A model generated the notes under the pieces. The model searched no databases. It was given only the letters and a program-made list of their open reading frames with translations, and was not told the DNA's origin. From IMG/VR virus record IMGVR_UViG_3300047202_000060: a stretch of 64,000 nt of DNA; one strand, 5' to 3'. Shown here one piece after another: positions 6,738-55,246 of this stretch. Positions within the stretch are counted from its first letter, which is position 1. Each line of letters starts with the position of its first letter. The position numbers and the translations under genes are program-made. The DNA is from a virus. Taxonomy: Duplodnaviria; Heunggongvirae; Uroviricota; Caudoviricetes.

Positions 6738-6763
6738 AGTATTTAAAGGTTATGGTTTGAACC
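6738..6763 (-). promoter_or_regulatory. class II promoter element (aaccataaccTTTAAATA in gene orientation)
   Basis: gagtatttaaaggttatggtttgaacc; GGGTGAT SD 6 nt before ATG at 6701. Confidence 0.4.
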
Positions 6764-6923
6764 CCAAATATTCTAATTCTTCGGGGGAATATTGTTTTAG
6801 CCATTTTTTAAAATGACGTTTAGCGTGACAATTTTTGTCAAGTAAAATAATTTCACCATTCAAATATCTTGTTTGAATGTTTTCAAAGTTCTCAACTCCA
6901 ATAAAAAGGGGTAGTTTTGGGTT

Positions 6924-7820
6924 TTAGCTCTCTTCCTTCTGCTTTTTCAGCTTCTCGACATCTATCTCGTCCGAATCTTCGAAGAAGCTACGGAACAGGT
7001 TCCTTTCCTCTTTTGCGGTGTAAAGTGAGCTTGCAATGTCTATGATGTCCTCTTCCGACATCTTTGCTTTATAGAGTTTGCCGTAGTTTATTAGGTTTCC
7101 TGTCGTGAGGGGCGTTCGAAGTTTTCCGTTCTCGTATTCGGTTCGGGTCTTTTTGCCAATTTCAACGAACTTCGATGCAAATTCGTATGCTTTGCCATCA
7201 TTGCCAGCGAATTTCTTTATCAAATCACGCTCTTTCTGGGGGCTAAGGTAGTCAATTATCAAACCTTCGAAGCGTCTAATCGTTGCAATGTTTTCGATGA
7301 ACGTCCCAGAGTAGCCCGATTTTTCGCTAGGGTTATACGAGATGACTAGGTAGTGCTGTGCTGTGCGCTGAAATTCCTTCTTGTATTCTGGAATCCAGAC
7401 CGAACCCCTAAAGTCCGCTAGGCTTTCCAGAAGTGAAATTATCGATGGTTCCGCATAGTTGAACCCGTCTATGTAAAGTAAACCCTTCGGCGAATTGAGC
7501 CATTGAATTATTATTCCTTCTCTTGTTTCCGTGTTGCCTTTGCTCAATGTGTCACACGCCAGCAAATCCCATTTTGTCACATCTCTCGTGAGCACAATTT
7601 CGAAAAGTGGAACCTCTAACAACTCTGCCAATTTATGAACCAAAGTTGTTTTGCCCGTCCCCGTTTCGCCGACTAATCGCAAGTTTCCGACAACCTCAAG
7701 AATCGCCCGTGACTTTTCAATGTAGTTATGTTCGTCCACGAACTCTATGCCTTTGACGTAGATGCCAGCACCTTCAAGTGCTGATTCAACCTTCGCATGG
7801 ATTTTTTCAAATTCAGACAT
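6924..7820 (-). CDS. MoxR/CobS-like AAA+ ATPase
   Basis: Walker A GETGTGKTT; AAA_5-like layout; paired with the vWA gene upstream. Confidence 0.7.
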   Translation of the reverse strand: MSEFEKIHAKVESALEGAGIYVKGIEFVDEHNYIEKSRAILEVVGNLRLVGETGTGKTTLVHKLAELLEVPLFEIVLTRDVTKWDLLACDTLSKGNTETREGIIIQWLNSPKGLLYIDGFNYAEPSIISLLESLADFRGSVWIPEYKKEFQRTAQHYLVISYNPSEKSGYSGTFIENIATIRRFEGLIIDYLSPQKERDLIKKFAGNDGKAYEFASKFVEIGKKTRTEYENGKLRTPLTTGNLINYGKLYKAKMSEEDIIDIASSLYTAKEERNLFRSFFEDSDEIDVEKLKKQKEES

Positions 7821-7852
7821 TTTTATTACCTATCTGAGTATAACGTCCGCGT

Positions 7853-7890
7853 CCTTAATAAACCTTTGCACAGAAAGTACGTGTTCATTC
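7853..7890 (-). promoter_or_regulatory. class I element copy (TTAATAAA variant)
   Basis: ccttaataaacctttgcacagaaagtacgtgttcattc; box about 34 nt upstream of ATG 7820. Confidence 0.4.
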
Positions 7891-7893
7891 AAG

Positions 7894-7909
7894 TTAATCA
7901 TCTGATTAA
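7894..7909. repeat. 16-bp palindrome TTAATCATCTGATTAA
   Basis: inverted repeat copy. Confidence 0.55.
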
Positions 7910-7958
7910 AATTCCAGAAAAATCGAGTTCCGCCGAACCGCAAGTTGCCCTAAAAAAC

Positions 7959-8393
7959 TTAGATAGTCTTTTGTTTTACAAATTCTTGAATTTCGTTTAA
8001 TTCCATTTTACAAATCTGATGAAGAAAGTGAAAACCTTTATGGCAAATATGGCAGAGAGGAATAAAATCCTCTTTGTGGTTTGCATAATACGATAAGCTA
8101 ATCGGGTGTTTTTTCCAATGAATTTCGTGAAGCATTAACCCCTGTTTCGAATCACATGATAAACACTTATCTGGAAATAATGCTTTTACCTTTTCACGAA
8201 ATAGCTTTTTCCTTTTGGATTCTTTTTCACGATTTTTTGAATAGTATGTTTGGTTTCTAAGTTTTCCAGCTTCGTGATTTTCTACGTAGTTGTTTCTGTG
8301 TCTTGCGTTTATTTTTTCTTTGTTTCGTGCGTGATAATCTCTTTGGGCTTTCCTTTGTTTTTCTTTGTCTTTATATGGCAATTCCATCACCAC
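7959..8393 (-). CDS. HNH endonuclease family A
   Basis: CLSCDS...LHEIHWKKH...DFIPLCHICHKGFH; basic N-terminus. Confidence 0.65.
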   Translation of the reverse strand: MVMELPYKDKEKQRKAQRDYHARNKEKINARHRNNYVENHEAGKLRNQTYYSKNREKESKRKKLFREKVKALFPDKCLSCDSKQGLMLHEIHWKKHPISLSYYANHKEDFIPLCHICHKGFHFLHQICKMELNEIQEFVKQKTI

Positions 8394-8417
8394 AACCTTT
8401 ATATAATACTATTCTAC

Positions 8418-8439
8418 TATTTAAAGGTTATGGTTTGGC
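8418..8439 (-). promoter_or_regulatory. class II promoter element
   Basis: ctatttaaaggttatggtttggc, 25 nt upstream of ATG 8393. Confidence 0.4.
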
Positions 8440-10205: not shown

Positions 10206-10206
10206 A

Positions 10207-10240
10207 CTTATAAACCTTTCTTAAGAAACAACATACTCAT
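10207..10240 (-). promoter_or_regulatory. class I element copy
   Basis: cttataaacctttcttaagaaacaacatactcat upstream of vWA gene start 10205. Confidence 0.4.
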
Positions 10241-10245
10241 TCTGC

Positions 10246-10261
10246 TTAATCAACTGATTAA
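10246..10261. repeat. 16-bp palindrome TTAATCAACTGATTAA
   Basis: inverted repeat copy. Confidence 0.6.
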
Positions 10262-10312
10262 AAAAACGCCAAAAACGATGGATGTTAACGGGCGTGAAGG
10301 AGCGTGAAGTCA

Positions 10313-10328
10313 TTAATCAACTGATTAA
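10313..10328. repeat. 16-bp palindrome TTAATCAACTGATTAA
   Basis: inverted repeat copy. Confidence 0.6.
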
Positions 10329-10693
10329 ATGAATTAGCCTCATATCTGGTTCCGTTTGGCAAAAGCATCCATTGTGAAAGACGTGCTGGAAAAGTCAGTA
10401 CGTTAATTCTAGGGAAAAACTTATAAGCAACCACGCCTATATATTCACAAAGCTTCACAAGAGGTTTGAAAATGTTTCCGTTTGACACAATAAGTTTCAT
10501 TTTGGCTCTCATCGTACTTGCAAAGGTCGCTAGAACTTTCCGTCACCCTATAGGTTTACCACCAAAGTCAATTAATTATGAGCCAGAAGATTAAACTAAA
10601 AATACCCCATACATACGCCCATTTTTTTTCTAAATTTTGATTTTGGACAGCATGATGTTCTCTTTCCTTTCCCCTAGCCTTTTCCCTGATTAT

Positions 10694-10709
10694 TTAATCA
10701 CTTGATTAA
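10694..10709. repeat. 16-bp palindrome TTAATCACTTGATTAA
   Basis: inverted repeat copy. Confidence 0.55.
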
Positions 10710-10803
10710 AAAAGCTTCGACTTCAGACTTCAGTCCCCATCGCATTCGCCCTAGCATCAAGAACGTTTTTTTCCCTAGCCTATTTACCTGTTAAATGGAA
10801 GTG

Positions 10804-11235
10804 TCAAAGTAGGGGTATATAACCTAGCCACTCATAAACTTTGTTGTTTATTTCTGTCATACCTTCACCTGTCCAGACATTATGCCATATAGATGTATGA
10901 AGTTCTTCTGGAATGTAGATAACAAAATTCTTATCTATATGATGGGCTTCTAAATCAGCAAACGGTTCGTTTAACGAAATAAAACCTAAACCACGTCTTT
11001 TGTGCTGATGTTTTATCCATATTTCTCTAGTTTGTTCTGGATGATTTTTTATCCAAGTTTTTGCTTGCTTTTTCACTTTCTCTTTATTAAGTTGATAATA
11101 TTTTTTATAACGTTTTTTCGCTTGTTCTTTATGTGTTTGAGCATATTTTACATTTTCAATTTTTTTTCTTAATATTACATCTGGACGTTTGCGATATTCT
11201 TGCATATATTCTTTTCTTTGTTTTTTCGTCCACAT
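10804..11235 (-). CDS. HNH endonuclease family B (HHID..IPxELHxxIWHN type) with basic repeat N-terminus
   Basis: GLGFISLNEPF..EAHHIDKNF..IPEELHTSIWHN..EINNKVYEWLG. Confidence 0.65.
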   Translation of the reverse strand: MWTKKQRKEYMQEYRKRPDVILRKKIENVKYAQTHKEQAKKRYKKYYQLNKEKVKKQAKTWIKNHPEQTREIWIKHQHKRRGLGFISLNEPFADLEAHHIDKNFVIYIPEELHTSIWHNVWTGEGMTEINNKVYEWLGYIPLL

Positions 11236-11263: not shown

Positions 11264-11287
11264 ACTTATAAATCTTTCGGTTTGTAG
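11264..11287 (-). promoter_or_regulatory. TATA/BRE-like promoter
   Basis: aacttataaatctttcggtttgtagg, box 30 nt upstream of ATG 11235. Confidence 0.4.
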
Positions 11288-13056: not shown

Positions 13057-13307
13057 GTAAATTGTACCTTCTCTTGTTCTGTATTTTTGAGAAGTTTCAT
13101 TATCAAGCCTAAAGCTATCTTTGCTGTTTTCGCATTTTTTACTACTTCGTTTTTTCTGAAAACTCTCAGAAACATTTTGTCCCAAACAATATAACAATAC
13201 GTGCAAAGAAAACAAACTTCTTCTGTCGGGGGTTCTTTCAAATGTCCGTAGCAAAGTTTGTGAGGGGGTAGTTCTGTTATTTCTTGTCCGCATCTGTCAC
13301 AATTCAT
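13053..13307 (-). CDS. Zn-ribbon protein, EKVQFT tail
   Basis: MNCDRCGQE...CFLCTYC. Confidence 0.5.
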   Translation of the reverse strand: MNCDRCGQEITELPPHKLCYGHLKEPPTEEVCFLCTYCYIVWDKMFLRVFRKNEVVKNAKTAKIALGLIMKLLKNTEQEKVQFT

Positions 13308-14670: not shown

Positions 14671-14704
14671 TATTAAAACCTTTGCCTAGAACAACCATGC
14701 TTAG
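14671..14704 (-). promoter_or_regulatory. class I element copy
   Basis: tattaaaacctttgcctagaacaaccatgcttag; contains stop of 14701..14970. Confidence 0.4.
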
Positions 14705-15008: not shown

Positions 15009-15043
15009 CTTATAAATCTTTAGGTAAAATCACCATGCTCGAT
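15009..15043 (-). promoter_or_regulatory. class I element copy encoding C-terminus of HNH-B gene
   Basis: cttataaatctttaggtaaaatcaccatgctcgat encodes IEHGDFT-stop. Confidence 0.4.
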
Positions 15044-15587: not shown

Positions 15588-15609
15588 GCTTATAAATGTT
15601 TCGGTTAGC
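15588..15609 (-). promoter_or_regulatory. TATA/BRE-like promoter
   Basis: ggcttataaatgtttcggttagc. Confidence 0.4.
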
Positions 15610-16534: not shown

Positions 16535-16573
16535 CCGTCCCTTATAAACGTTTGCCTAGAACACCCATGCTCG
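16535..16573 (-). promoter_or_regulatory. class I element, near-consensus copy
   Basis: ccgtcccttataaacgtttgcctagaacacccatgctcg. Confidence 0.45.
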
Positions 16574-16584: not shown

Positions 16585-16600
16585 TTAAACAGTTGATTAA
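16585..16600. repeat. imperfect 16-bp palindrome TTAAACAGTTGATTAA
   Basis: one mismatch in left arm. Confidence 0.4.
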
Positions 16601-17194: not shown

Positions 17195-17428
17195 TCAAGT
17201 AAATTGCACCTTCTCAGGTACTATATCGTTTTTTAGTTCTCCTTTCCAAACAAGCCAAGTCGGATTATGTTCATTCGGATATTTTTCTTCTAATCTTTTT
17301 TGATTTTTTGCAAAAAACTTGTGCCAATAATTAACACATCTTTTGCAAAGAAAGGAATCAACGTGTCTGTCTTCTTTTTCGTTTGTCAAAAATTTTGCAC
17401 TACAATGCTCACAAGTTTTTTTTCTCAT
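17195..17428 (-). CDS. Zn-finger protein, EKVQFT tail
   Basis: CEHCSAKF...CKRCVNYWH. Confidence 0.5.
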   Translation of the reverse strand: MRKKTCEHCSAKFLTNEKEDRHVDSFLCKRCVNYWHKFFAKNQKRLEEKYPNEHNPTWLVWKGELKNDIVPEKVQFT

Positions 17429-18222: not shown

Positions 18223-19083
18223 TTAGAGAAAGACCCGTTCAGCGTGAATATGTCCGTTTCCTTTACTGTCAAACTCGTAAGGTTTGCCCGACTGAACGAA
18301 TGCTGGAAAGTAGATTTTCATAGATTGTTCCGTGTTTTCTTTGTCAATCCACAGAAACTCACCTTTACGCAAACCCATAAGAGCGTTAACCACTCGTTCA
18401 CCCTTTTCTGTCCCGAACATACGCTTTAGCTTCTGCCTGTCGTTATCACCTGAGATTGAGCCAATAAGCATATATTTTGTACGCTCCACTATTCGAGTAG
18501 AAATATCGCTTAAACGTTGTCCTATTCCTATGAAGAATTGTCCGTAATTTCGACTTTCAGACCAAATCTTAAGCCAAAACTCAGATCGCTTATAGGAACC
18601 GAACAAGTTCTGAATCTCTTCAAGAACGTAAATTCGACTAAGTTTTGGTTGTCCGTTATTTTCGTTCATTGACTCTCGTTGAATATAGTAATCTTGCCCG
18701 ACCAAGTTTTCTATCAAGCTAACATTCATTGTTGTTGACACGAATCCCAAATCAAGCAGAACAATTTTTTCGTCCTCTGGAATACTAGGCTTCTTTGTTA
18801 CATCAACATAAGGTATTCGGTCAAATTTTTGCTTCCAAACGTTAGCAGAATCTCCTATACGAAGTATAACTTTTCCATCTTTGTATTTTTGTGAATTCAT
18901 TATGAATCTAACTATATGCATTGCAACAGTTGTCTTACCTGTGCCCCCCAAACCAATTATGAGCAGTTTTCCGTTCTCAGTCAAACTTTGCATTATGTTT
19001 TCAAGTAACTTTTCGCTCATTTTTTGAGCGTCAGATTGCTCAGATATTTCTATTGCAATTTTATTTTCGGTTTCTTCCGTCAT
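18223..19083 (-). CDS. P-loop NTPase (possible DNA-translocating or packaging-type ATPase)
   Basis: Walker A IIGLGGTGKTT; hydrophobic-D Walker B candidate VLLDLGF; 286 aa. Confidence 0.5.
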   Translation of the reverse strand: MTEETENKIAIEISEQSDAQKMSEKLLENIMQSLTENGKLLIIGLGGTGKTTVAMHIVRFIMNSQKYKDGKVILRIGDSANVWKQKFDRIPYVDVTKKPSIPEDEKIVLLDLGFVSTTMNVSLIENLVGQDYYIQRESMNENNGQPKLSRIYVLEEIQNLFGSYKRSEFWLKIWSESRNYGQFFIGIGQRLSDISTRIVERTKYMLIGSISGDNDRQKLKRMFGTEKGERVVNALMGLRKGEFLWIDKENTEQSMKIYFPAFVQSGKPYEFDSKGNGHIHAERVFL

Positions 19084-19582: not shown

Positions 19583-19616
19583 CTATATAAACGTTTGCCC
19601 AAAATACCCATGCTCA
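19583..19616 (-). promoter_or_regulatory. class I element copy abutting junction cassette
   Basis: ctatataaacgtttgcccaaaatacccatgctca. Confidence 0.4.
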
Positions 19617-21145: not shown

Positions 21146-21306
21146 TTCTTCTTAACGGGACAATCTCGATATATCTCTGGAAGACAGCACAAGAGAGAGA
21201 AACATCTTTCGTATTTCTTTGGTATTTCCATAAAGATGTAGATGTCACCGACACTTATAAAGGTTTGTTAAGAATAAACATACACAAAAAAAAGAAAATG
21301 GGAAAA

Positions 21307-22237: not shown

Positions 22238-22274
22238 GTTCCTTATAAAGTTTTGCCTAGAAAGAACATACTCA
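22238..22274 (-). promoter_or_regulatory. class I element copy
   Basis: cgttccttataaagttttgcctagaaagaacatactca. Confidence 0.4.
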
Positions 22275-22328: not shown

Positions 22329-22344
22329 TTAATCAACTGATTAA
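22329..22344. repeat. 16-bp palindrome TTAATCAACTGATTAA
   Basis: inverted repeat copy. Confidence 0.6.
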
Positions 22345-23945: not shown

Positions 23946-23980
23946 CCTTAATAAACCTTTGCTTAGAAACATCATGCTCA
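23946..23980 (-). promoter_or_regulatory. class I element copy
   Basis: ccttaataaacctttgcttagaaacatcatgctca, about 37 nt upstream of 23912. Confidence 0.4.
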
Positions 23981-23990: not shown

Positions 23991-24006
23991 TTAATCACCA
24001 GATTAA
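23991..24006. repeat. imperfect palindrome TTAATCACCAGATTAA
   Basis: degenerate inverted repeat. Confidence 0.3.
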
Positions 24007-26510: not shown

Positions 26511-26549
26511 CCGTCCTATTTAAACCTTGTGGTAGAACGTTCATACTCA
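26511..26549 (-). promoter_or_regulatory. class I element copy (TGGTAGAAC variant)
   Basis: ccgtcctatttaaaccttgtggtagaacgttcatactcaa, box 29 nt upstream of ATG 26487. Confidence 0.4.
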
Positions 26550-26610: not shown

Positions 26611-26626
26611 TTAATCACTTGATTAA
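26611..26626. repeat. 16-bp palindrome TTAATCACTTGATTAA
   Basis: inverted repeat copy at 3' end of KaiC-like gene. Confidence 0.55.
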
Positions 26627-29115: not shown

Positions 29116-29745
29116 TTATTTGTTACTTATAAACTTTGCCCCAGAACTATCGTGCTCGATTAACCACTCGAACGCTTTATCGTTTATCTCGAACATACCA
29201 CGACCAGACCAGATATTATGACGAATTGAATTATGAAGTTTTTCGGGAATATAGACTACACACTCAAAGTCAATATGGTGTCCGTGGGAACCTTCGAATG
29301 GTTCATTAAGAAAATCGTGCCCTAGACCACGGCGTTTATACTTTTGTTTTCTAGTTTGTTTTCCTCTCCATTCTGGATGGTTTTTACGCCAATTTGTCGT
29401 CCTTTGGTCACACTCTTCTTTATGAGCGTTATAATATTGGGTTTTAGATTTTTTATCATGAAGTTTTAATTCTTCTGGGGTTAATCTTTTTAGTGGATGT
29501 GGACGATAACTCTTTTTATGATTTCTCTTATTAGATTCTCTAACCTTTTCGGGATTATTTTTTCGCCAATTTCTCAGCATAATCCTTTTTTGTTCTGGAT
29601 GATTCCTCTTCCATTTTATACTCCGTTGTTTGCATTCTTCTTTGTGAGTTTCATAATAGTGTTTTGTCCATTGCCTTTTATGTTGTTTTAGTTCTTCTTC
29701 TGTAAAGATTTTTCTAACAAATTGACCTTTAGAATTTCTACCCAT
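29116..29745 (-). CDS. HNH endonuclease family B with basic repeats
   Basis: GLGHDFLNEPF..HGHHIDFECVVYIPEKLHNSIRHN..AFEWLIEHDSSGAKFISNK; C-terminus encoded by class I element. Confidence 0.65.
   Translation of the reverse strand: MGRNSKGQFVRKIFTEEELKQHKRQWTKHYYETHKEECKQRSIKWKRNHPEQKRIMLRNWRKNNPEKVRESNKRNHKKSYRPHPLKRLTPEELKLHDKKSKTQYYNAHKEECDQRTTNWRKNHPEWRGKQTRKQKYKRRGLGHDFLNEPFEGSHGHHIDFECVVYIPEKLHNSIRHNIWSGRGMFEINDKAFEWLIEHDSSGAKFISNK
29126..29158 (-). promoter_or_regulatory. class I element copy inside HNH-B 3' end
   Basis: cttataaactttgccccagaactatcgtgctcg. Confidence 0.4.
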
Positions 29746-29775: not shown

Positions 29776-29795
29776 GCTTATAAAGGTTATGGTTC
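29776..29795 (-). promoter_or_regulatory. class II promoter element
   Basis: gcttataaaggttatggttcc, 32 nt upstream of 29745. Confidence 0.4.
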
Positions 29796-30545: not shown

Positions 30546-30583
30546 CGTCCTATATAAACGTTTACTAAGAAACACCATGCTCA
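30546..30583 (-). promoter_or_regulatory. class I element, near-consensus
   Basis: cgtcctatataaacgtttactaagaaacaccatgctca; provides TGA stop of 30581..30898 and box 34 nt upstream of 30516. Confidence 0.45.
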
Positions 30584-31435: not shown

Positions 31436-31958
31436 CTTTGTAAGAAGAATAGTTATCGTCCCTTATAAACGTTGTCCCAGAACCATCGTGTTCGTTTTCT
31501 GGGTGATGAAGTTCTCTATGACATCTGCAACAGAGAAGTTGTATTTTACCATCTAAAACCAATTTAAGAAAAACTTTTGTCATATATAAATTACAATCAT
31601 CATGTTTTTCCTTAGTTTTTGGGTCAAGATGGTGAAATTCGAATACTGCCAAACAACCAATATATCCACATTTTTGACATTTGCCACCGAGTAATTTTAT
31701 CAACTCTTTTTTTCGTTTGTGTTTTCTCCCGATAACATATTCTCTAACCCATTTTTTGTTTCTTTTCTGCCAACATCTTTGTGATTCACGAACTTTCTCC
31801 AAATTGTTTAAACGATATTTTCTTCTATTTTGTGCAACTTTTTCTTTATTATTTTCATTCCACTTCTTTGACCTACAATTTTTAGAACAATATTGTTGTA
31901 TTCTATGATAATATGGATTCTGAATAAATTCTGTGCCACACACTTTACATTTTGGCAT
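31404..31958 (-). CDS. HNH endonuclease family A with N-terminal Zn ribbon and basic repeats
   Basis: MPKCKVCG...CSKNC; LLGGKCQKCGY...FHHLDP...LLCCRCHRELH; NEHDGSGTTFIRDD encoded by class I element. Confidence 0.6.
   Translation of the reverse strand: MPKCKVCGTEFIQNPYYHRIQQYCSKNCRSKKWNENNKEKVAQNRRKYRLNNLEKVRESQRCWQKRNKKWVREYVIGRKHKRKKELIKLLGGKCQKCGYIGCLAVFEFHHLDPKTKEKHDDCNLYMTKVFLKLVLDGKIQLLCCRCHRELHHPENEHDGSGTTFIRDDNYSSYKDDKYGYSEYS
31457..31494 (-). promoter_or_regulatory. class I element copy embedded in-frame in HNH ORF
   Basis: cgtcccttataaacgttgtcccagaaccatcgtgttcg. Confidence 0.4.
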
Positions 31959-32696: not shown

Positions 32697-32731
32697 CCCT
32701 ATATAAAGTTTGCCCCAGAAACACCACGCCC
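32697..32731 (-). promoter_or_regulatory. class I element copy preceded by poly-G
   Basis: cctatataaagtttgccccagaaacaccacgccc. Confidence 0.4.
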
Positions 32732-32797: not shown

Positions 32798-32813
32798 TTA
32801 ATCAGTTGATTAA
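32798..32813. repeat. 16-bp palindrome TTAATCAGTTGATTAA
   Basis: inverted repeat copy. Confidence 0.55.
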
Positions 32814-33240: not shown

Positions 33241-33690
33241 TGGACTTTTAACGATGGCAGGAACGCCCGCCTTTCAATCTGCCCCGAAATTTACTCTGAT
33301 TGTCAAGTTCGATTCAGTTCGGTAGTCAGATGGCTCTCACCCAACCCCTCGACAGGGTAGCTTGGATTTTTAATCAGGTGATTAATAGTTGAACTTTCAG
33401 TTGTAAAAAAAGTGTAACTAAAAAGGTCACGCAAAAAAACCCCAGAAAAAAAACCTTGAGGCTCACTCGACTTTTACATAAAGCGCACATAGGCGAAAAA
33501 TGACATAAAATTTGTTTTTGGTAGCCAGTTTTTTTTCGGCGGCTTTTGGCACGGGTTCCGAGCCGTTTTCGTTTCTCCGTTTCAGCGGTCTCTCAAACCA
33601 AATTACTAAGATTCTCGGAAAAGAAAATAATGGAAAACGTCTTTTTTGCCAGCGGTTTTTAGCCTCTAGGGGAAGCTCTAGGTAGGGGAG
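33241..33690. other. 450-nt ORF-free region with GC-rich islands and poly-A/T runs; candidate origin or non-coding RNA locus
   Basis: no ORF of 60 aa or more on either strand; strand switch; GC islands gccagttttttttcggcggcttttggcacggg and ttgccagcggtttttagcc. Confidence 0.3.
33370..33385. repeat. 16-bp palindrome TTAATCAGGTGATTAA
   Basis: inverted repeat copy. Confidence 0.55.
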
Positions 33691-36236: not shown

Positions 36237-36616
36237 TGTTCTTTTAATCTACAAGAGTTTATACAGTATTTTTCCTTATCACTCGAATCATGTACTGTGC
36301 ATCCAGAAATACGCCAATCATTTTTTACAACTTTATAATGTATCAAGTAAATTGTACCTTCTCATTTTCTTCTATTTTTATCAAATGCTTCTTTTCTTTT
36401 TCTCCATAATGGTTAATTTGAGCCTTTGTTCCATGAGCACAAAATAATCTGCCAAACTTATCAGACTTTATTACGCATCCTTTGACAGTAAATGTGCAAC
36501 AAGTACATCTATAAGTTGTCATGTAAATTGAACCTTCTCTCTTTGATAATGTTTAGCAAGCCGTCTAAACCAGCGAAGCCGCCTGAAAATAAGTGGGTAG
36601 TTTATATCCTTTCTCA

Positions 36617-38046: not shown

Positions 38047-38081
38047 CCTATATAAACTTTGCGCTAGAACCACCTTACTCA
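38047..38081 (-). promoter_or_regulatory. class I element copy
   Basis: cctatataaactttgcgctagaaccaccttactca. Confidence 0.4.
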
Positions 38082-38181: not shown

Positions 38182-38197
38182 TTAATCATCTGATTAA
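38182..38197. repeat. 16-bp palindrome TTAATCATCTGATTAA
   Basis: inverted repeat copy. Confidence 0.55.
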
Positions 38198-38711: not shown

Positions 38712-38732
38712 AAGTATTTAAAGGTTATGGTT
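38712..38732 (-). promoter_or_regulatory. class II promoter element
   Basis: agtatttaaaggttatggttg. Confidence 0.4.
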
Positions 38733-39686: not shown

Positions 39687-39963
39687 TCATCAGTAAGATA
39701 TGCCATAAAGAATAATGTGTTGTCAATATCTTCGTCCGTAATTTCTTCATCAGACATTAAAACTCTTCCTCTCCGACCATAGCATTCATCAACATATGCC
39801 AAATACACTTTTGACATATAGCGTAATCATTTTTATACATACATTGTGGACATGTTTTTCGTGCTATTTTATTAGCTTTTTCCTGTTGCTCTTTTTTTGT
39901 TAAAGGAATATACGATTTCATGTCAAATCACACTTAAGTTATGACAAAACGCCTATTTAAAGG

Positions 39964-40596
39964 TTACGGAACTTTGTCTTCTGGATTCCAATGAGTTTGT
40001 TCATATTTTAAAAGCCAACTTTTATAACTTTCTTCTGTTCTACGCATTTTCTTTGTTTGTGATGTTGATTGATGGTTTATTACAATGTGAATTGCTGGTG
40101 CGTGTACTATATCTATTTCTCCATCTTTATCAAAAACTCTCCTATGATCTGTTGACCAATGCACGGTTTCTGTTTTTCTAATACACGCATATCTTAGATG
40201 TAATGCATAAGGTTTATACATTAGCCAATGCATACGATAGACTTTTTCATTAAAGTTTTCAAGTGTTTTACGAACGTCATCTCCCCATTCAACTATATAT
40301 TCATCTGAATCTATAATTAGACCCCAATCTCCATTATTGAGATATTTAAGAGATTCCGTCCGAGACTCGTGTTGATGCATAACGGACAATTGAATATAAG
40401 AAACTTTAGATTTGGAAATTTTGGCAAATTCTTCTATTACTTTATCTGTTCCATCATCTGAGTGGTCTGGACCTTCAATACCGTGCCATCTGCCGTCAAA
40501 ACACATTATCTCGTCCACTTTACCATCTATACTTTGAAGACACGGTAATATAACTTCTGAACATTGATATGTCATAATTATTGCTACAAGTTTCAT
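39964..40596 (-). CDS. glycosyltransferase family 2-like
   Basis: N-terminal KLVAIIMTYQCSE; acidic DSDEY motif; 210 aa. Confidence 0.5.
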   Translation of the reverse strand: MKLVAIIMTYQCSEVILPCLQSIDGKVDEIMCFDGRWHGIEGPDHSDDGTDKVIEEFAKISKSKVSYIQLSVMHQHESRTESLKYLNNGDWGLIIDSDEYIVEWGDDVRKTLENFNEKVYRMHWLMYKPYALHLRYACIRKTETVHWSTDHRRVFDKDGEIDIVHAPAIHIVINHQSTSQTKKMRRTEESYKSWLLKYEQTHWNPEDKVP

Positions 40597-41718: not shown

Positions 41719-41745
41719 GAGTATTTAAGTCTTACGGTTTAAGCC
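41719..41745 (-). promoter_or_regulatory. class II promoter element
   Basis: gagtatttaagtcttacggtttaagcc, box 34 nt upstream of 41687. Confidence 0.4.
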
Positions 41746-42359: not shown

Positions 42360-42394
42360 CCTTAATAAACTTTGTGGTAGAAAGCCCATATTCA
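42360..42394 (-). promoter_or_regulatory. class I element copy
   Basis: ccttaataaactttgtggtagaaagcccatattca; supplies TGA stop of 42392..42658. Confidence 0.4.
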
Positions 42395-45307: not shown

Positions 45308-45343
45308 CTCTATTTAAACTTTGCGTAAGAAAGACTATGCTCA
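45308..45343 (-). promoter_or_regulatory. class I element copy abutting junction cassette
   Basis: cctctatttaaactttgcgtaagaaagactatgctca, box 32 nt upstream of 45278. Confidence 0.4.
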
Positions 45344-45516: not shown

Positions 45517-45837
45517 TCATGTAAATTGCACCTTCTCTCTATCATGCATAAACCTGTAATATTCATGAGCAAGCCATACAAACCATCTCATACAAGCTCT
45601 ACAATTGCTACCGCATTTTGTAGTAGGCGGTGCAACGCCATTATACGATTTTGTTTGCCCCATCGTCCCGCCATTCTCGGAGTCCATATCCTTTCTTGGG
45701 TTTAATGAAGACAAGTGGACCATGTGTAAAAGACATTTCTCTAGCTTCCCGCTGTACTCTTGGTATAAATTGAATTTTATCTTGTACACTCCATTCTGTT
45801 TTTTGGTTGGTTTGAATATCTTTCTTGAGAAGACCAT
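45517..45837 (-). CDS. hypothetical Cys-containing protein, EKVQFT tail; N-terminal extent uncertain
   Basis: overlaps 45641..46387 by about 197 nt in another frame; internal Met at about 45663. Confidence 0.4.
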   Translation of the reverse strand: MVFSRKIFKPTKKQNGVYKIKFNLYQEYSGKLEKCLLHMVHLSSLNPRKDMDSENGGTMGQTKSYNGVAPPTTKCGSNCRACMRWFVWLAHEYYRFMHDREKVQFT

Positions 45838-47840: not shown

Positions 47841-47877
47841 GTCCTATTTAAAGTTTGCGATAGAAAGAACGTGTTCA
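47841..47877 (-). promoter_or_regulatory. class I element copy
   Basis: gtcctatttaaagtttgcgatagaaagaacgtgttca. Confidence 0.4.
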
Positions 47878-47898: not shown

Positions 47899-47914
47899 TT
47901 AATCAACTGATTAA
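47899..47914. repeat. 16-bp palindrome TTAATCAACTGATTAA
   Basis: inverted repeat copy. Confidence 0.6.
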
Positions 47915-51274: not shown

Positions 51275-51370
51275 TTTTCTTCCTCTTTTCTGAATTTATA
51301 TATTTTATACGCAAGATACGTTGGAAATCCAAGTAACATTCCAAATGTCCAAATTACCATAATTATCATT

Positions 51371-51616: not shown

Positions 51617-51646
51617 TTTTTCTACCTTGAATATAACTATTCATTC

Positions 51647-51683
51647 GTCCTATATAAACTTTGTGTAAGAAACTCCATACTCA
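51647..51683 (-). promoter_or_regulatory. class I element, near-consensus
   Basis: cgtcctatataaactttgtgtaagaaactccatactca. Confidence 0.45.
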
Positions 51684-51684
51684 A

Positions 51685-52110: not shown

Positions 52111-52174
52111 CTATAACATCTTTTCTACAATATGGAAGAAAAACACGATGATAATAAAACGCCCAATCAAACAT

Positions 52175-53481: not shown

Positions 53482-53513
53482 CTCATTTCACCATATTATA
53501 TAATAGTAGTTCT

Positions 53514-53538
53514 AGTATATAAATGTTATGGTTTGGTC
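53514..53538 (-). promoter_or_regulatory. class II promoter element
   Basis: agtatataaatgttatggtttggtc, box 34 nt upstream of 53481. Confidence 0.4.
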
Positions 53539-53544
53539 ATTTTA

Positions 53545-53877
53545 TCACTCAACAAGTACACCGTTCTTTGCCAACTCTTTGATTACATCTTCTCGCGTTT
53601 GAGGTAACACGATTTGCTTGTAATACCATATCCAATCTATCAAAACGTGAAACTTTGCCACTTCAATCAATCGCTGTCGGCGCAATTCATCTGGATAATC
53701 TTTACTATTAAAATGCGCCATAATTGCTTGAACATAATGACGGTTGACCCAATGTGTTCGTCCGTTAGTTCCATTAAATGACCCATCTATCCACTTATGA
53801 ACTTCGTCAAAGTAATTATGTCCAAAAAGTTCTATATCTATTTCACCATGAATTTGGGGTGCTGGCATATCTTTCAC
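53545..53877 (-). CDS. hypothetical protein
   Basis: 110-aa ORF. Confidence 0.45.
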   Translation of the reverse strand: MKDMPAPQIHGEIDIELFGHNYFDEVHKWIDGSFNGTNGRTHWVNRHYVQAIMAHFNSKDYPDELRRQRLIEVAKFHVLIDWIWYYKQIVLPQTREDVIKELAKNGVLVE

Positions 53878-53939
53878 TAAGGGATAATATAGACTAAAAG
53901 CAGTATTTAAAGCTTGCGGAAAAAGATAGGGTGGTAGTT

Positions 53940-54824
53940 TTAACTTTGATGATAACTACCTTTTGGTGAAGGAAACGACATCTTACGTTCCTCTTCTTCC
54001 ATCTTCTGTTTACGTTGTTCCTCACATTTCTTGCTATCAGTTGTCTTGTCAAAAATGAACTGGAAAAAGTTCTCGTCCAAGAATTGGTAGATACTATCAA
54101 TCGGTATGAAAAATCCCATCCAAGTGATTATATCTACACCGAAACCAAGTTGCACACTTGCTACTCTAGCGGTATTTCCTATATACTCATAGGAGTCCGA
54201 CAGAAAAACTGGTCCACCAGAATTGCCGAATATGACGTTAGCAGAAGTCATCCAGTATTCTTTTGCATCTATTTGGTCGCCTTTAGACGATAAGTTTCCA
54301 AACGTGAAGAACGGATTGTGTGCCATCGAGCAACCACAACTTATCATTGAAGTTCCGATTTTTATGTCATCTCCCTTGTCCTTCGGATAGAGTTTCGCAA
54401 TATACTCTACTTTTTCAGAACATTTTACTTTAAGTAGAGCAACATCAAGTGGTTTGTCATAAGCAACTATTTCGGCATCCAAAGTTGTACCACCTACACA
54501 TCGGCTCAACTTCTCATACTTGAAAAGTTCTACACGCACAAGTTCGTTAGCTTCAACTGTGATGTCTTTCTTTGCAATGCTAGACCATTTCTTGACGAAT
54601 TTGATTGCGTCTTCAACAACGTGGTGGCAAGTCACAATGTAAGACTCATATTCTTTGTCTTCATCTGATTTGTCGAGAGTATCTGGGGTTACACTAGAGT
54701 AAATAACAACACCAGTTCCAGCGGCATGTTCCGTCAAAACTCTAACAATAGGATAAAGGATATGCTTATGGATTTCTTTCAGTTTTTCAGCAGATATATC
54801 CATCATAATCACCAATAGATACAT
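53940..54824 (-). CDS. trypsin-like (S1/HtrA-like) serine protease
   Basis: catalytic His context TCHHVV; Ser motif GNSGGPVF; 294 aa. Confidence 0.6.
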   Translation of the reverse strand: MYLLVIMMDISAEKLKEIHKHILYPIVRVLTEHAAGTGVVIYSSVTPDTLDKSDEDKEYESYIVTCHHVVEDAIKFVKKWSSIAKKDITVEANELVRVELFKYEKLSRCVGGTTLDAEIVAYDKPLDVALLKVKCSEKVEYIAKLYPKDKGDDIKIGTSMISCGCSMAHNPFFTFGNLSSKGDQIDAKEYWMTSANVIFGNSGGPVFLSDSYEYIGNTARVASVQLGFGVDIITWMGFFIPIDSIYQFLDENFFQFIFDKTTDSKKCEEQRKQKMEEEERKMSFPSPKGSYHQS

Positions 54825-54855
54825 TAGACAGTTCTGGTATATAAAGGTTATGGTT

Positions 54856-54877
54856 TTATTTATCCAAAGCTTTGCCC
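54856..54877 (-). promoter_or_regulatory. class II promoter element
   Basis: ggtatataaaggttatggtttt, box 33 nt upstream of 54824. Confidence 0.4.
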
Positions 54878-55192
54878 TTGATGGTCAACATTGCACTTAT
54901 TCTGGTCATCATCATCTTCTTCTTCCTTTTCTTCTTCATCATCTTCATCATTTTCTGGTGTCTCTTCACCAAAAGGATTATAATCAGGTGGCGGTGGTGG
55001 AACTGGTTCATCTATATCTTGTTCAAGTTGACCCATAAAATGAAGAGCACAAAGATAAATTTTTACCATTTCAAATCGTCCATGTAATTCTCGTTTAACA
55101 TAACATTCGAATATACTATCAGATGATTTTCCGCAATACTCACAAATTGGACCAGAAACAACTTGACTTTTAGGTTCTTCGTCTTCCGACAT
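54860..55192 (-). CDS. acidic Zn-ribbon protein with poly-D/E tail
   Basis: CEYCGKS..C..CALH; EDDEEEKEEEDDDD. Confidence 0.45.
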   Translation of the reverse strand: MSEDEEPKSQVVSGPICEYCGKSSDSIFECYVKRELHGRFEMVKIYLCALHFMGQLEQDIDEPVPPPPPDYNPFGEETPENDEDDEEEKEEEDDDDQNKCNVDHQGQSFG

Positions 55193-55221
55193 AATAACAC
55201 CAAGAAGGTTAAAGGTAAAAC

Positions 55222-55246
55222 GAGTATATAAACCTTATGGTTACGG
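55222..55246 (-). promoter_or_regulatory. class II promoter element
   Basis: cgagtatataaaccttatggttacgg, box 32 nt upstream of 55192. Confidence 0.4.

What the first reader, a model, noticed from the sequence alone, without database searches (positions are those of the whole stretch)
6738..55246. A second promoter class (aaccataaccTTTAAATA) suggests temporal classes
Nine or more units use a different conserved upstream element. These are the PP-loop gene, several HNH genes, the HExxH gene at 38694, the protease and the acidic protein. The element is short, with an AACC repeat before TTTAAATA, and the leader carries an SD. Related variants caaaccgaaaggTTTATAAg sit before HNH genes at 4814, 11235 and 15556. 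Two promoter architectures in one genome are a classic sign of early and late regulons.
Basis: inference. Interest (0 to 1): 0.55.

Follow-up and report, generated by a model that had tools for sequence, protein, structure and literature searches.

The report
Archaeal-type viral promoters, two classes
The repeated "aaccataaccTTTAAATA" element is real and looks like a textbook strong archaeal promoter (extended TFB-recognition element plus TATA box) that mostly drives selfish nuclease genes in a large uncultivated virus, while the virus's own genes use the same core promoter with extra control sequences. So there are two regulatory classes, but an early/late split is not shown.

Summary
AACCRWAANNYTTAWA (≤1 mismatch) occurs 14 times, all on the coding strand, against 1.6 expected. 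Each copy lies 21-38 nt before a start codon.

It is not a separate architecture. Both classes share one core: an A-rich BRE, an 8-bp TTTAWAWR box, an AT-rich stretch 10-19 nt after the box, then a GGTGA-type ribosome site. This is archaeal promoter anatomy.

- **Class 2:** it matches, in register, the extended BRE (MRCCGAAAAG + TWTATATA) of high-affinity Methanocaldococcus promoters.
- **Class 1:** 23 copies. It replaces the AACC extension with a virus-specific GAGCATG-N4-TTCT module. It is often preceded by a 16-bp palindrome (17 copies), which never precedes class 2.

Ten of 14 class-2 units carry an HNH-like paralog, against 1 of 24 class-1 units. In a 147-kb relative a LAGLIDADG gene sits at the same VWA/MoxR junction behind the same promoter type, and orthologous core genes keep class 1.

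Relatives encode MCM and PolB, and three of their contigs are binned in one archaeal MAG.

My reading is that class 2 is a portable, factor-independent promoter for mobile and accessory genes, and class 1 is operator-controlled. Temporal separation is plausible but untested. I rate it a new member of a known kind.

The parts
55225..55242 (-). Class-2 promoter AACCATAAGG-TTTATATA, before the acidic-tail protein gene 55192-54860
54838..54855 (-). Class-2 promoter AACCATAACC-TTTATATA, before the trypsin-like protease gene (ATG 54806; ORF to 53940)
53516..53533 (-). Class-2 promoter AACCATAACA-TTTATATA, before HNH-like 53481-52951 and HNH-family 52954-52175
41722..41739 (-). Class-2 promoter AACCGTAAGA-CTTAAATA, before HNH-like 41687-41223
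39954..39971 (-). Class-2 promoter TTCCGTAACC-TTTAAATA, before 39921-39757. The stop codon of the upstream gene lies inside the BRE
38715..38732 (-). Class-2 promoter AACCATAACC-TTTAAATA, before the HExxH protein gene (to 38251). The upstream gene's TAA stop lies inside ATAA
31981..31998 (-). Class-2 variant AAACATAAGA-CTTATATA. The ATG of HNH-like 31958-31404 follows the box after 22 nt with no SD (leaderless-like)
29777..29794 (-). Class-2 promoter AACCATAACC-TTTATAAG, before HNH-family (AHHID subtype) 29745-29116
15589..15606 (-). Class-2 promoter AACCGAAACA-TTTATAAG, before HNH-family gene (ATG 15556) to 15020
11265..11282 (-). Class-2 promoter AACCGAAAGA-TTTATAAG, before HNH-family 11235-10804
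8418..8435 (-). Class-2 promoter AACCATAACC-TTTAAATA, before HNH-like 8393-7959, which sits between the VWA and MoxR genes
6740..6757 (-). Class-2 promoter AACCATAACC-TTTAAATA, before PAPS-reductase (PP-loop) 6701-5433 and the HNH-family fragment 5436-5143
4848..4865 (-). Class-2 promoter AACCGAAAGG-TTTATAAG, before HNH-like gene (ATG 4814) to 4134
3378..3395 (-). Class-2 promoter AACCGAAAGA-CTTAAATA, before HNH-like 3356-2868
53904..53925 (-). Intermediate promoter TTCCGCAAGC-TTTAAATA. It has neither the GAGCATG module nor AACC. It lies before 53877-53545
51651..51682 (-). Class-1 promoter (GAGTATGGAGTTTCT..ACAAAG-TTTATATA)
47845..47876 (-). Class-1 promoter, with a palindrome 47 nt upstream
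45311..45342 (-). Class-1 promoter heading the unit that contains the RNA ligase gene
42362..42393 (-). Class-1 promoter
38049..38080 (-). Class-1 promoter heading a long operon of small ORFs
32700..32731 (-). Class-1 promoter
31462..31493 (-). Class-1 promoter immediately after the HNH-like gene 31958-31404
30551..30582 (-). Class-1 promoter (consensus copy GAGCATGGTGTTTCTTAGTAAACG-TTTATATA-GGACGCTGATATAGTAT)
29126..29157 (-). Class-1 promoter heading the unit with the KaiC/RadA-like ATPase
26517..26548 (-). Class-1 promoter
23948..23979 (-). Class-1 promoter before the InlB-B-repeat protein gene 23912-22473
22242..22273 (-). Class-1 promoter before the SPFH/Band-7 gene 22203-21307
21254..21285 (-). 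Class-1 promoter (degenerate upstream module)
19584..19615 (-). Class-1 promoter heading the unit with the HerA/FtsK-like ATPase 19083-18223
16541..16572 (-). Class-1 promoter
15009..15040 (-). Class-1 promoter immediately after the HNH-family gene 15574-15020
14671..14702 (-). Class-1 promoter
10207..10238 (-). Class-1 promoter before the VWA gene, with palindromes 32 and 99 nt upstream
7855..7886 (-). Class-1 promoter before the MoxR-type AAA gene 7820-6924. The ortholog in L141 is also class 1
5109..5140 (-). Class-1 promoter
4120..4151 (-). Class-1 promoter before the conserved 230-aa gene 4086-3394, flanked by palindromes on both sides. The same layout occurs in L141
1315..1346 (-). Class-1 promoter with a palindrome 18 nt after the box, followed by about 230 nt with no ORF of 40 or more codons
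488..519 (-). Class-1 promoter
522..537 (.). Palindrome TTAATCANNTGATTAA
1282..1297 (.). Palindrome between the box and the predicted transcription start of promoter 1315-1346
4100..4115 (.). Palindrome 5 nt after the box of promoter 4120-4151
4162..4177 (.). Palindrome 35 nt upstream of the box of promoter 4120-4151
7894..7909 (.). Palindrome upstream of class-1 promoter 7855-7886
10246..10261 (.). Palindrome upstream of class-1 promoter 10207-10238
10313..10328 (.). Palindrome
10694..10709 (.). Palindrome
16585..16600 (.). Palindrome (1 mismatch) upstream of class-1 promoter 16541-16572
22329..22344 (.). Palindrome upstream of class-1 promoter 22242-22273
23991..24006 (.). Palindrome (1 mismatch) upstream of class-1 promoter 23948-23979
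26611..26626 (.). Palindrome upstream of class-1 promoter 26517-26548
32798..32813 (.). Palindrome upstream of class-1 promoter 32700-32731
33370..33385 (.). Palindrome in the 573-nt ORF-free gap 33118-33690
38182..38197 (.). Palindrome upstream of class-1 promoter 38049-38080
47899..47914 (.). Palindrome upstream of class-1 promoter 47845-47876
56717..56732 (.). Palindrome inside the epimerase gene (the only intragenic copy)

Best explanation
The window is part of a large (contig 140,745 bp) uncultivated virus or virus-like element. Its genes are most likely transcribed by an archaeal host RNA polymerase from BRE/TATA promoters.

This is the plain, high-affinity form of the promoter. It has an extended TFB-recognition element AACC-R-W-AA, with C at -7 and -8 from the box, directly abutting an 8-bp TATA box TTTAWAWR. 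An AT-rich promoter-proximal stretch follows. Transcription is predicted to start about 22-24 nt after the box, at or just before a GGTGA ribosome-binding site, so leaders are very short. The inference is that host TBP and TFB bind this element without help.

Class 2 drives mainly stand-alone, probably mobile nuclease genes (HNH-like here, LAGLIDADG in a relative) and a few accessory enzymes: PAPS reductase, two proteases and an acidic protein.

**Class 1.** The virus's conserved genes use the same core. The AACC extension is replaced by a virus-specific module, GAGCATG-N4-TTCT upstream and GGACG downstream of the box. A 16-bp palindrome TTAATCA-NN-TGATTAA often lies 27-47 nt further upstream, and at two promoters a second copy lies over the predicted start site. 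The inference is that these are operators for one or more unidentified DNA-binding regulators.

**Shown and inferred.**
- Shown: two regulatory classes exist, defined by presence or absence of operator sequences around one shared core.
- Inferred: host TBP/TFB binding, the position of the transcription start, and regulator binding.
- Not shown: that the classes correspond to different times of infection. This is possible.
For: **Shared core**
- A BRE+TATA weight matrix gives 40 sites above 12 bits on the coding strand against 6 on the other strand.
- In relatives the counts are 14/0, 6/0, 10/1, 9/1 and 7/0.
- The distance from box end to start codon is 21-38 nt, with one outlier at 47 nt. The SD-like motif starts 19-26 nt after the box.
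- Measured from the first base of the box, +8..+13 is GC-rich and +18..+27 is AT-rich. This holds in class 1, class 2 and relatives.

**Match to archaeal consensus**
- TTTAWATA plus a purine-rich BRE is the strong archaeal viral promoter (PMC11065993).
- High-affinity M. jannaschii TBP/TFB sites have MRCCGAAAAG + TWTATATA. C at -7 is the most conserved position, and 19-24 bp of AT-rich DNA lie between the box and an Inr with a G start (PMC2602779). Class 2 matches this position for position.
- An AT-rich PPE at -10, the SD motif GGDGRD and a median 5'UTR of 12 nt are reported for Thermococcus (PMC5316973).

**No bacterial signals**
- Sigma-70-like sites: 57 against 54.4 expected. Intrinsic terminators: 15 against 13.2.
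- T4-late TATAAATA: 4 against 7.0 expected.

**Archaeal context**
- Three contigs of one 'uncultured archaeon' MAG (L026, L081, L125) carry the palindrome, the same promoters and homologs of window proteins, with the protease at 57% identity.
- L081 encodes a full MCM helicase whose best solved relatives are archaeal MCMs. L125 encodes a family B polymerase.
- Archaeal viruses encode no RNAP of their own (PMC5569661).

**Class distinction**
- Class 2: 14 hits against 1.6 expected. Class 1: 24 hits, 23 of them on the coding strand, against 0.18. Palindrome: 17 against 0.08.
- A palindrome lies within 150 nt upstream of 11 of 24 class-1 promoters and 0 of 14 class-2 promoters.

**Gene association**
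- An HNH-family gene occurs in 10 of 14 class-2 units against 1 of 24 class-1 units, p = 2e-5.
- HNH genes in L011, L008 and L141, and the LAGLIDADG gene in L141, are preceded by CC-ATAA/GWAA-NN-YTTAWATA.
- In L141 the MoxR and 230-aa orthologs keep class 1, including both flanking palindromes.

**Conservation**
- The class-2 motif is found in relatives whose ATPase is only about 50% identical.
- The exact class-1 module (GAGCATG-N4-TTCT) is found only in the closer relative L141. L012 has a diverged CATGG-A-rich version of it.
Against: - No transcription start sites, expression data or binding data exist for this element. TSS position, factor binding and timing are all inferred.
- The host is not identified. 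The archaeal link rests on promoter anatomy, MCM/PolB in relatives and co-binning in one MAG, which can be wrong.
- The spacing would also fit a bacterial '-10-only' promoter with a 25-30 nt leader.
- The predicted leaders are very short, with the SD at the extreme 5' end. This is unusual even for archaea.
- BRE variants form a continuum in relatives (for example aaCC-GCAAAG), so the two classes are not sharply separated outside this genome.
- Four class-2 units have no nuclease gene. One HNH paralog (25029-24583) sits inside a class-1 unit.
- The nuclease assignment itself is below significance in every single test.
- No regulator for the palindrome or the class-1 module was found. The 230-aa candidate has no recognisable DNA-binding fold.
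Confidence: 0.6

Rival explanations
1. The two elements mark two temporal regulons (early versus late), with class 2 switched on at a different time from class 1 by a dedicated factor.
For: - Two robust classes exist.
- Class membership is conserved for orthologs in L141.
- Only class 1 has palindromic operator-like sites.
- There is precedent in archaeal viruses: HF2 has two classes of intergenic promoter repeats, one heading a late 35-kb transcript (PMC8707807), and SIRV2 early genes share a consensus regulatory sequence (PMC11065993).
Against: - The core and spacing are the same in both classes.
- The classes are interleaved gene by gene.
- Class 2 has no class-specific sequence beyond a canonical extended BRE, so nothing suggests a dedicated factor.
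- Class 2 correlates with selfish nuclease genes rather than with a functional module.
- No structural or late module lies in the window to anchor timing.
Confidence: 0.25
2. Class 2 is only a by-product of gene duplication. The HNH paralogs were copied together with their 5' flank, and the similarity carries no regulatory meaning.
For: - Ten of 14 class-2 units contain a member of one paralogous family.
- Promoter sub-variants partly follow nuclease sub-families: TTTATAAG goes with the AHHID subtype, and CTTAAATA goes with 3356 and 41687.
Against: - The paralogs are only 18-33% identical in protein, yet the motif matches the 16-position pattern (14 specified positions) with at most one mismatch.
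- Similarity stops abruptly outside the 18 nt.
- The same motif precedes unrelated genes: PAPS reductase, protease, HExxH protein, acidic protein, a LAGLIDADG gene in L141, and non-nuclease genes in L007, L009 and L012.
Confidence: 0.08
3. The element belongs to a bacteriophage. TTTAWATA is a -10-type box, as in T4 late TATAAATA, read by a phage sigma-like factor, and AACC is an upstream extension.
For: A box-to-start distance of 29-38 nt would give a normal bacterial leader of 22-32 nt with an SD. Relatives are catalogued as viral contigs in IMG/VR.
Against: - TATAAATA is not enriched.
- There is no sigma-70 or intrinsic-terminator signal.
- There is no DNA match, and no protein match for two family-conserved ATPases, among 50,697 phage records.
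- The conserved AT-rich block 10-19 nt after the box would lie in the transcript without a role.
- Relatives carry MCM, PolB, a Lig1-type ligase and PTH2.
- Related contigs are binned in an archaeal MAG.
Confidence: 0.07

Closest known systems
Extended-BRE/TATA promoters of Methanocaldococcus jannaschii with high TBP/TFB affinity (Li et al. 2008, PMC2602779)
   Same: Class 2 aligns position for position with MRCCGAAAAG + TWTATATA, as AACC-G/A-A/T-AA-NN + TTTAWAWR, with C at -7. There are 19-26 nt between the box and a G-rich start/SD region, and the sequence just before it is AT-rich.
   Different: - The last two BRE positions are not conserved here.
- ATAA is as common as GAAA at -6..-3.
- The element is in a virus.
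- No binding or TSS data exist here.
Halovirus HF2 class I and class II intergenic repeats that carry promoters (PMC8707807)
   Same: This is an archaeal virus with two conserved families of intergenic promoter-bearing repeats. They are conserved in sequence and position among related viruses. The longer class carries extra conserved blocks around the BRE/TATA.
   Different: - HF2 has only 7 + 2 repeats, against about 24 + 14 in 64 kb here.
- The HF2 sequences are unrelated.
- The HF2 classes head long transcripts rather than single nuclease genes.
- The HF2 promoters were verified by reporter assays and primer extension.
SIRV2 and rudivirus early-gene consensus regulatory sequence with Aca8 operator (PMC11065993)
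   Same: A strong BRE + TTTAWATA promoter is embedded in a conserved regulatory sequence in front of many small, poorly conserved genes. Control by a small virus-encoded DNA-binding protein is proposed. This resembles class 1 here.
   Different: The hosts are Sulfolobales, the motif is different, and the regulator is known. Here the regulator is unknown and timing is unmeasured.
Free-standing homing endonuclease genes with their own promoters in large phages (T4 seg/mob genes; own knowledge, not tested here)
   Same: Nuclease genes sit singly between conserved genes, each with a private promoter. Different nuclease families occupy the same intergenic site in related genomes: HNH in the window and LAGLIDADG in L141, both between VWA and MoxR.
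   Different: The promoter type is archaeal. Homing activity and target sites are unknown. The HNH fold is only weakly supported.

Membership tests
Archaeal BRE/TATA core promoter (TBP/TFB dependent) | 8-bp A/T-rich TATA box with consensus TTTAWATA | tested here: met
   All 38 promoter-like sites have TTTAWAWR-type boxes (TTTATAAG 13, TTTATATA 9, TTTAAATA 8, others 8). The consensus is quoted in PMC11065993.
Archaeal BRE/TATA core promoter (TBP/TFB dependent) | A/purine-rich BRE directly upstream of the box. Strong promoters have an extended BRE MRCCGAAAAG with C at -7 | tested here: met
   AA at -4/-3 occurs in all class-2 sites and nearly all class-1 sites. Class 2 has AACC at -10..-7 in 12 of 14 copies. 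The register matches PMC2602779.
Archaeal BRE/TATA core promoter (TBP/TFB dependent) | AT-rich promoter-proximal element around -10 relative to the start site | tested here: met
   AT content is 75-92% at +18..+27 from the box start, after a GC-rich +8..+13. This holds in both classes and in 46 sites from relatives. PPE is described in PMC5316973.
Archaeal BRE/TATA core promoter (TBP/TFB dependent) | Transcription starts on a purine about 22-25 nt after the box (box centred near -27) | not testable with these tools
   There are no transcript data. The geometry is compatible: no credible start codon lies closer than 21 nt, the SD-like G-run begins at 19-26 nt, and one gene (31958) has its ATG 22 nt after the box with no SD.
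Archaeal BRE/TATA core promoter (TBP/TFB dependent) | The host is an archaeon | tested here: inconclusive
   Related contigs L026, L081 and L125 belong to one 'uncultured archaeon' MAG. Relatives encode a canonical MCM, PolB, a Lig1-type ligase and PTH2. No CRISPR, tRNA or integration evidence was found. A protein-based scan of GTDB genomes found nothing.
Bacterial sigma-70 promoter | -35 TTGACA and -10 TATAAT hexamers 16-18 nt apart, enriched upstream of genes | tested here: not met
   There are 57 consensus-like sites against 54.4±7.9 in shuffles. The conserved blocks are 11-13 nt apart, not 17.
T4-type late promoter (gp55-dependent) | TATAAATA at -10 with no conserved upstream sequence | tested here: not met
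   TATAAATA occurs 4 times against 7.0 expected. Here the strongest conservation is upstream of the box.
Temporal promoter classes of a virus (early/late regulons) | Promoter classes with different sequence determinants | tested here: met
   Class-specific flanks and palindrome association are shown.
Temporal promoter classes of a virus (early/late regulons) | Different expression kinetics of the two classes | not testable with these tools
   No expression data are available.
Free-standing homing endonuclease gene cassette | Encodes a homing-type nuclease (HNH, LAGLIDADG or GIY-YIG fold) | tested here: inconclusive
   - There is a conserved CxxC..HEIH..CxxCH motif.
- The profile search against PDB gives T5 SciA at E = 0.018.
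- The AF2 model has pLDDT 85, and its top Foldseek hits are HNH nucleases but with E ≥ 0.12.
- Pfam HNH gives E = 2.
Free-standing homing endonuclease gene cassette | Single-gene insertions between conserved genes, patchy among relatives, with alternative nuclease families at the same site | tested here: met
   - The nuclease genes sit singly between class-1 units.
- Copy number and positions differ among L007, L008, L011, L012 and L141.
- The VWA/MoxR junction holds an HNH gene in the window and a LAGLIDADG gene in L141.
Free-standing homing endonuclease gene cassette | Demonstrated mobility (presence/absence polymorphism, cleavage of the empty site) | tested here: inconclusive
   The other contigs of the same virus (L003-L005, L010) are 99.99-100% identical to the window, so no polymorphism is available.

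The most novel reading that the evidence does not exclude
A family of very large (94-148 kb contigs) uncultivated archaeal viruses runs a two-tier transcription programme. In one tier, a virus-specific operator system controls the virus's own genes through an unknown regulator. That system is the 16-bp palindrome TTAATCA-NN-TGATTAA, with dozens of copies per genome, together with the GAGCATG-TTCT module. In the other tier, selfish nuclease genes of at least two families spread between these viruses carrying a 'universal' host-consensus extended-BRE promoter. That promoter works in any genome of the family and escapes viral control.
Probability: 0.25. Interest if true: 0.65.

Novelty: new member of a known kind. 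Interest (0 to 1): 0.45.

Why it matters
- **Classification.** The promoter anatomy is the clearest evidence in the window that this unclassifiable element is archaeal. It has no DNA match and almost no protein matches among 50,697 phage records. Together with its relatives (94-148 kb contigs with MCM and PolB), it would be among the larger archaeal viruses known.
- **Annotation.** The promoter models give a practical handle for annotating transcription units and true start codons. They also help find small-gene operons and possible non-coding RNAs in this virus family.
- **Experiments.** The models separate probable mobile or accessory genes from operator-controlled core genes. The palindrome and the class-1 module are ready-made baits for finding the regulator.
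- **Limits.** Conserved promoter classes in archaeal viruses are already known (HF2, SIRV2), and class 2 is a textbook extended BRE. The finding is useful rather than surprising.

Tried and rejected
- **Exact 18-mer in IMG/VR.** AACCATAACCTTTAAATA gave two contigs (L001, L002). They share no proteins with the window and show no strand-biased promoters, so they are chance matches.
- **Searches for the window or close relatives that found nothing.**
  - Protein-based searches in IMG/VR with the PAPS reductase, a glycosyltransferase and the 230-aa protein.
  - Megablast of 20 kb against phage records.
  - tblastn of the KaiC-like and HerA-like ATPases against phages.
  - The PAPS reductase hits only distant Bacillus-phage homologs and one Nitrosopumilaceae virus homolog. 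This says nothing about the host.
- **ATPase profile against GTDB genomes.** No relative was found.
- **tRNA and Rfam scans.** Scans of the window, and tRNA scans of 11 loci, found nothing.
- **Pfam/PHROG annotation.** About 115 window ORFs were scanned. Most are ORFans, and no transcription factor, TBP, TFB or RNAP was detected.
- **Coding reading of the palindrome and class-1 module.** Read in frame they give FNQLI(N/K) and NEHGVS*. This was considered because some upstream ORFs run through them: the HNH-like protein 4844-4134 ends ...NQMINELNEHRVS*, and so does ORF 10221-10313. It was rejected as the general explanation, because the frames differ between copies and the copy at 522-537 is bracketed by stop codons.
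- **ORF-free stretch after promoter 1315-1346 as a structured RNA.** The z-score is -1.0, which is not significant.
- **Leaderless mRNAs as a discriminator.** Five promoters have an ATG 21-26 nt after the box, but four have an alternative downstream ATG with an SD. Only 31958 is a clean case.
- **Other contigs of the same virus.** L003-L005 and L010 are identical to the window, so they give no insertion polymorphism.

Full report
**1. The observation**

The window is AT-rich (GC about 36%). Essentially all genes lie on the minus strand.

- AACCTTTAAATA with ≤1 mismatch occurs 8 times against 1.29 expected.
- The generalised AACCRWAANNYTTAWA occurs 14 times, all on the coding strand, against 1.61±1.32 expected. 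No shuffle out of 100 reached that number.
- TTTAAATA alone is not enriched. The information lies in the upstream AACC-RWAA and in the position.

After dropping one intragenic near-match and adding 39954-39971, there are 14 copies. Each has its box end 21-38 nt before a start codon.
- PAPS reductase / PP-loop.
- Trypsin-like protease.
- An HExxH protein.
- A protein with an acidic tail.
- The variants before the ATGs at 4814, 11235 and 15556.

**2. What the other class looks like**

Listing all upstream regions and scanning with a BRE+box weight matrix shows about 40 promoter-like sites on the coding strand and 6 on the other strand.

Besides the 14 class-2 sites there are 23 class-1 sites that fit GAGYAYG-N4-TTCT-N4-MAA-NN-TTTAWA, against 0.18 expected, plus one intermediate site at 53904.

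Aligned on the box, the two consensus sequences are:
- Class 1: TGAGcAtGgt.tTTCT..g.aAA.g-TTTATAaa-GgacG
- Class 2: caAACCatAAc.-TTTAtAta-ct

Both classes share the following:
- the same box variants;
- AA at -4/-3;
- the same distance to the start codon, with an SD-like GGTGA/AGTGA/GGTAG beginning 19-26 nt after the box;
- the same composition profile, counted from the first base of the box: GC-rich at +8..+13 and 75-92% AT at +18..+27.

They are therefore one core promoter with two kinds of flank, not two architectures.

**3. Why I read the core as archaeal**

The anatomy matches published archaeal promoters:
- TTTAWATA preceded by an A/purine-rich BRE is the strong archaeal promoter described for archaeal viruses (PMC11065993).
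- Archaeal promoters have the box centred near -27 and an AT-rich promoter-proximal element at -10. Thermococcus has SD motifs of the GGDGRD type and a median leader of 12 nt (PMC5316973).
- The promoters of Methanocaldococcus jannaschii with the highest TBP/TFB affinity have an extended BRE MRCCGAAAAG next to TWTATATA. C at -7 is the most conserved position. Then 19-24 bp of AT-rich DNA lead to an initiator whose G is the start (PMC2602779).
- Class 2 (AACC-G/A-A/T-AA-NN + box) fits that consensus in exact register. AACC occupies -10..-7 in 12 of 14 copies.

Bacterial signals are absent:
- Sigma-70-like sites: 57 against 54.4 expected. Intrinsic terminators: 15 against 13.2.
- The T4-late box TATAAATA: 4 against 7.0 expected.

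**4. Context and relatives**

Most proteins in the window are ORFans. Nothing matches among 50,697 phage records at the DNA level, nor for two family-conserved ATPases at the protein level.

A KaiC/RadA-like ATPase (26623-27558) has 51 metagenomic homologs. Through these I fetched relatives from 71-136 kb contigs: L007-L009 and L011-L013. The conserved 230-aa protein (3394-4086) led to a 147.6-kb relative, L141.

All of these except the most distant one (L013, which has no matrix hit) show the same core promoter. L007, L008, L009, L011 and L012 show it on the coding strand only. L141 shows it on both strands (24 plus, 18 minus), and it also has genes on both strands.

A scan of GTDB genomes for the palindrome (see section 6) returned mostly single chance hits. 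The exception was three contigs of one 'uncultured archaeon' MAG: L026, L081 and L125. These contigs carry:
- homologs of window proteins: the protease at 57% identity, RNA ligase, epimerase, a glycosyltransferase and the 389-aa protein;
- the same strand-specific promoters;
- a complete MCM helicase, whose best solved relatives are archaeal MCMs, next to the syntenic glycosylation genes, and a family B DNA polymerase.

Other relatives encode a Lig1-type ATP-dependent ligase and a PTH2-type peptidyl-tRNA hydrolase.

This is indirect but consistent evidence for an archaeal host. I put that at about 0.85. Archaeal viruses are not known to encode RNA polymerases (PMC5569661), and none is seen here, so the host machinery must read both classes.

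**5. What distinguishes class 2**

An all-against-all comparison finds one large paralogous family in the window. It has 10 members, plus two more recognised by motif. The conserved motif is CxxC...H(E/D)IH...DF.PLCxxCH.

Evidence on the fold:
- A profile of the family finds the T5 SciA nicking endonuclease, E = 0.018.
- An AlphaFold model (pLDDT 85) finds SciA, Cap5, PacI, Gme-HNH and an HNH-Cascade as its top Foldseek hits, but all with E ≥ 0.12.
- Pfam HNH is not significant.

I call the family HNH-like: probable, not proven.

Association with promoter class:
- Ten of 14 class-2 units contain a member, against 1 of 24 class-1 units (Fisher p = 2e-5).
- On the map the classes are interleaved. 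A class-2 promoter typically drives a single nuclease gene wedged between two class-1 units.
- The promoter often overlaps the stop codon of the gene before it. For example, the TAA stop lies inside CCATAAcc at 38725-38727.

Duplication of a cassette does not explain the motif:
- The paralogs are only 18-33% identical.
- Similarity ends abruptly outside the 18 nt.
- The motif also precedes unrelated genes here and in relatives.

In L011, L008 and L141 the nuclease paralogs, on either strand, are again preceded by CC-ATAA/GWAA-NN-YTTAWATA.

In L141 the junction between the VWA and MoxR genes is occupied by a LAGLIDADG gene behind CCC-ATAAGA-CTTATATA. In the window that junction holds the HNH-like gene 8393-7959. 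Two nuclease families at one site, both behind the same promoter type, is the pattern expected of free-standing homing endonuclease genes.

**6. What distinguishes class 1**

- The class-1 module has fixed spacing and includes a conserved GGACG(cTGA) just after the box.
- A 16-bp palindrome TTAATCA-NN-TGATTAA occurs 17 times against 0.08 expected.
- Eleven of 24 class-1 promoters have a palindrome within 150 nt upstream. Seven of these lie 27-47 nt from the box, that is, just upstream of the GAGCATG block. None of the 14 class-2 promoters has one.
- Two class-1 promoters also have a copy 5-18 nt after the box, over the predicted start site.
- The palindrome is a family trait: 21 copies in 21 kb of L011, and copies in L007, L026 and L141.
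- In L141 the ortholog of the 230-aa gene has the same layout as in the window: palindrome, GAGCATGATGTTTCTTAG, CAAAGG, TTTATATA, GGACG, palindrome, ATG. The MoxR ortholog is also class 1.
- L012 has a diverged version, CATGG-A-rich-G[CT]AAAG-TTTATA. Class-2-type AACC-GWAA promoters are unchanged in all relatives.

From this I infer the following:
- Class 1 carries operators for virus-specific regulators that co-evolve with each virus.
- Class 2 is the generic host-optimal promoter.
- That would suit genes that move between viruses.

**7. Mechanism and its status**

- Shown: the elements, their statistics, their positions, their conservation, and the class/gene-type association.
- Established knowledge of archaeal transcription: TBP binds the box and TFB binds the BRE and orients the complex. 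An extended BRE with C at -7 goes with high affinity.
- Inferred: transcription starts about 22-24 nt after the box, at the G-run of the SD, giving leaders of about 7-15 nt. Class 2 is active without viral factors. Class 1 is modulated, by activation from the upstream site and repression where the palindrome overlaps the start.
- Not shown: any difference in timing.

**8. Rivals**

- A pure temporal-class reading stays possible (0.25).
- Duplication history alone is unlikely (0.08).
- A bacterial -10-type promoter fits the spacing but little else (0.07).

**9. Comparison with known systems, and novelty**

The closest systems are:
- the extended-BRE promoters of M. jannaschii, which match class 2;
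- the two classes of promoter-bearing intergenic repeats of halovirus HF2 (PMC8707807);
- the conserved early-gene regulatory sequence of SIRV2 with its Aca8 operator (PMC11065993), which resembles class 1;
- free-standing homing endonuclease genes with private promoters in large phages.

The finding is a new member of a known kind. Its main value is that it identifies an otherwise unclassifiable large element as archaeal-type and gives usable promoter and operator models for the whole virus family.

Noticed in passing
window, 40 sites, e.g. 36523-36539, 45521-45537, 13057-13073, 17199-17215 (minus strand): A third repeated element, GAGAAGGTNCANTTNAC (≤2 mismatches), occurs 40 times against 0.68 expected, 39 of them on the coding strand. 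Most copies (about two-thirds) end 1 nt before the start codon of the next gene inside operons of small ORFs. It looks like a conserved intercistronic junction: an SD-like AAGGTG, a fixed spacer and an ATGA start/stop overlap. It makes many upstream proteins end in ...EKVQFT.
   Followed up: partly
window, 17 sites listed under parts; L011 (21 copies in 21 kb), L007, L026, L141: The 16-bp palindrome TTAATCA-NN-TGATTAA is conserved across the virus family. It is tied to class-1 promoters. One copy (56717-56732) lies inside the epimerase gene. The binding protein is unknown.
   Followed up: partly
window 10285-10804, with a plus-strand site at 10396-10425: This is an ORF-poor region flanked by three palindromes. 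It holds the only class-1-like promoter on the plus strand (CAGTACGTTAATTCTAGGGAAAAACTTATA). No plus-strand ORF longer than 42 aa lies in the region downstream of the site. It could be an antisense or non-coding transcript.
   Followed up: no
window 1083-1314; L009 8377-9223; L012 7248-8039; L007 753-903: Some promoters are followed by stretches with no ORF of 40 or more codons. In L009 three class-2-type promoters stand in tandem before about 750 nt without a gene. The window stretch shows no significant RNA folding (z = -1.0). These may be non-coding RNAs.
   Followed up: partly
[not shown]
   Followed up: yes
L141 3252-6014 and 6065-6598: The VWA homolog in L141 is 920 aa against 588 aa in the window. 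About 300 extra residues lie between the two aligned parts, which may be an intein or an inserted domain. A LAGLIDADG gene follows it directly.
   Followed up: no
window 55241-64000 (minus strand): This is a promoter-free block of sugar-modification genes: two Anp1/GT2-like glycosyltransferases, a Kelch-repeat protein, a UDP-GlcNAc 2-epimerase, a GNAT, a hexapeptide transferase and, just upstream in L010, a UDP-glucose dehydrogenase-like gene. Several of the families are mainly eukaryotic. The homologous block in L081 lies next to an MCM helicase gene.
   Followed up: partly
window 18223-19083 (minus strand): A 286-aa P-loop ATPase is conserved in all relatives at 33-39% identity. It has weak HerA/FtsK-type matches (PDB E = 0.004) and a weak PHROG 'terminase large subunit' match (E = 3e-8). 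It may be a packaging ATPase. No capsid gene is recognisable in the window.
   Followed up: partly
window 38725-38727, 39964-39966, 3393-3395, 15604-15606: Stop codons of upstream genes lie inside the class-2 BRE: TAA within CCATAAcc or CCGTAAcc, or TAA overlapping tAACC. Gene ends and the next promoter overlap by design.
   Followed up: no
L003, L004, L005, L010: Contigs from one further JGI record (the same sample number as the window's own contig) and two SRA runs are 99.99-100% identical to the window over 4-10.7 kb. The same virus genotype therefore recurs in several datasets.
   Followed up: no
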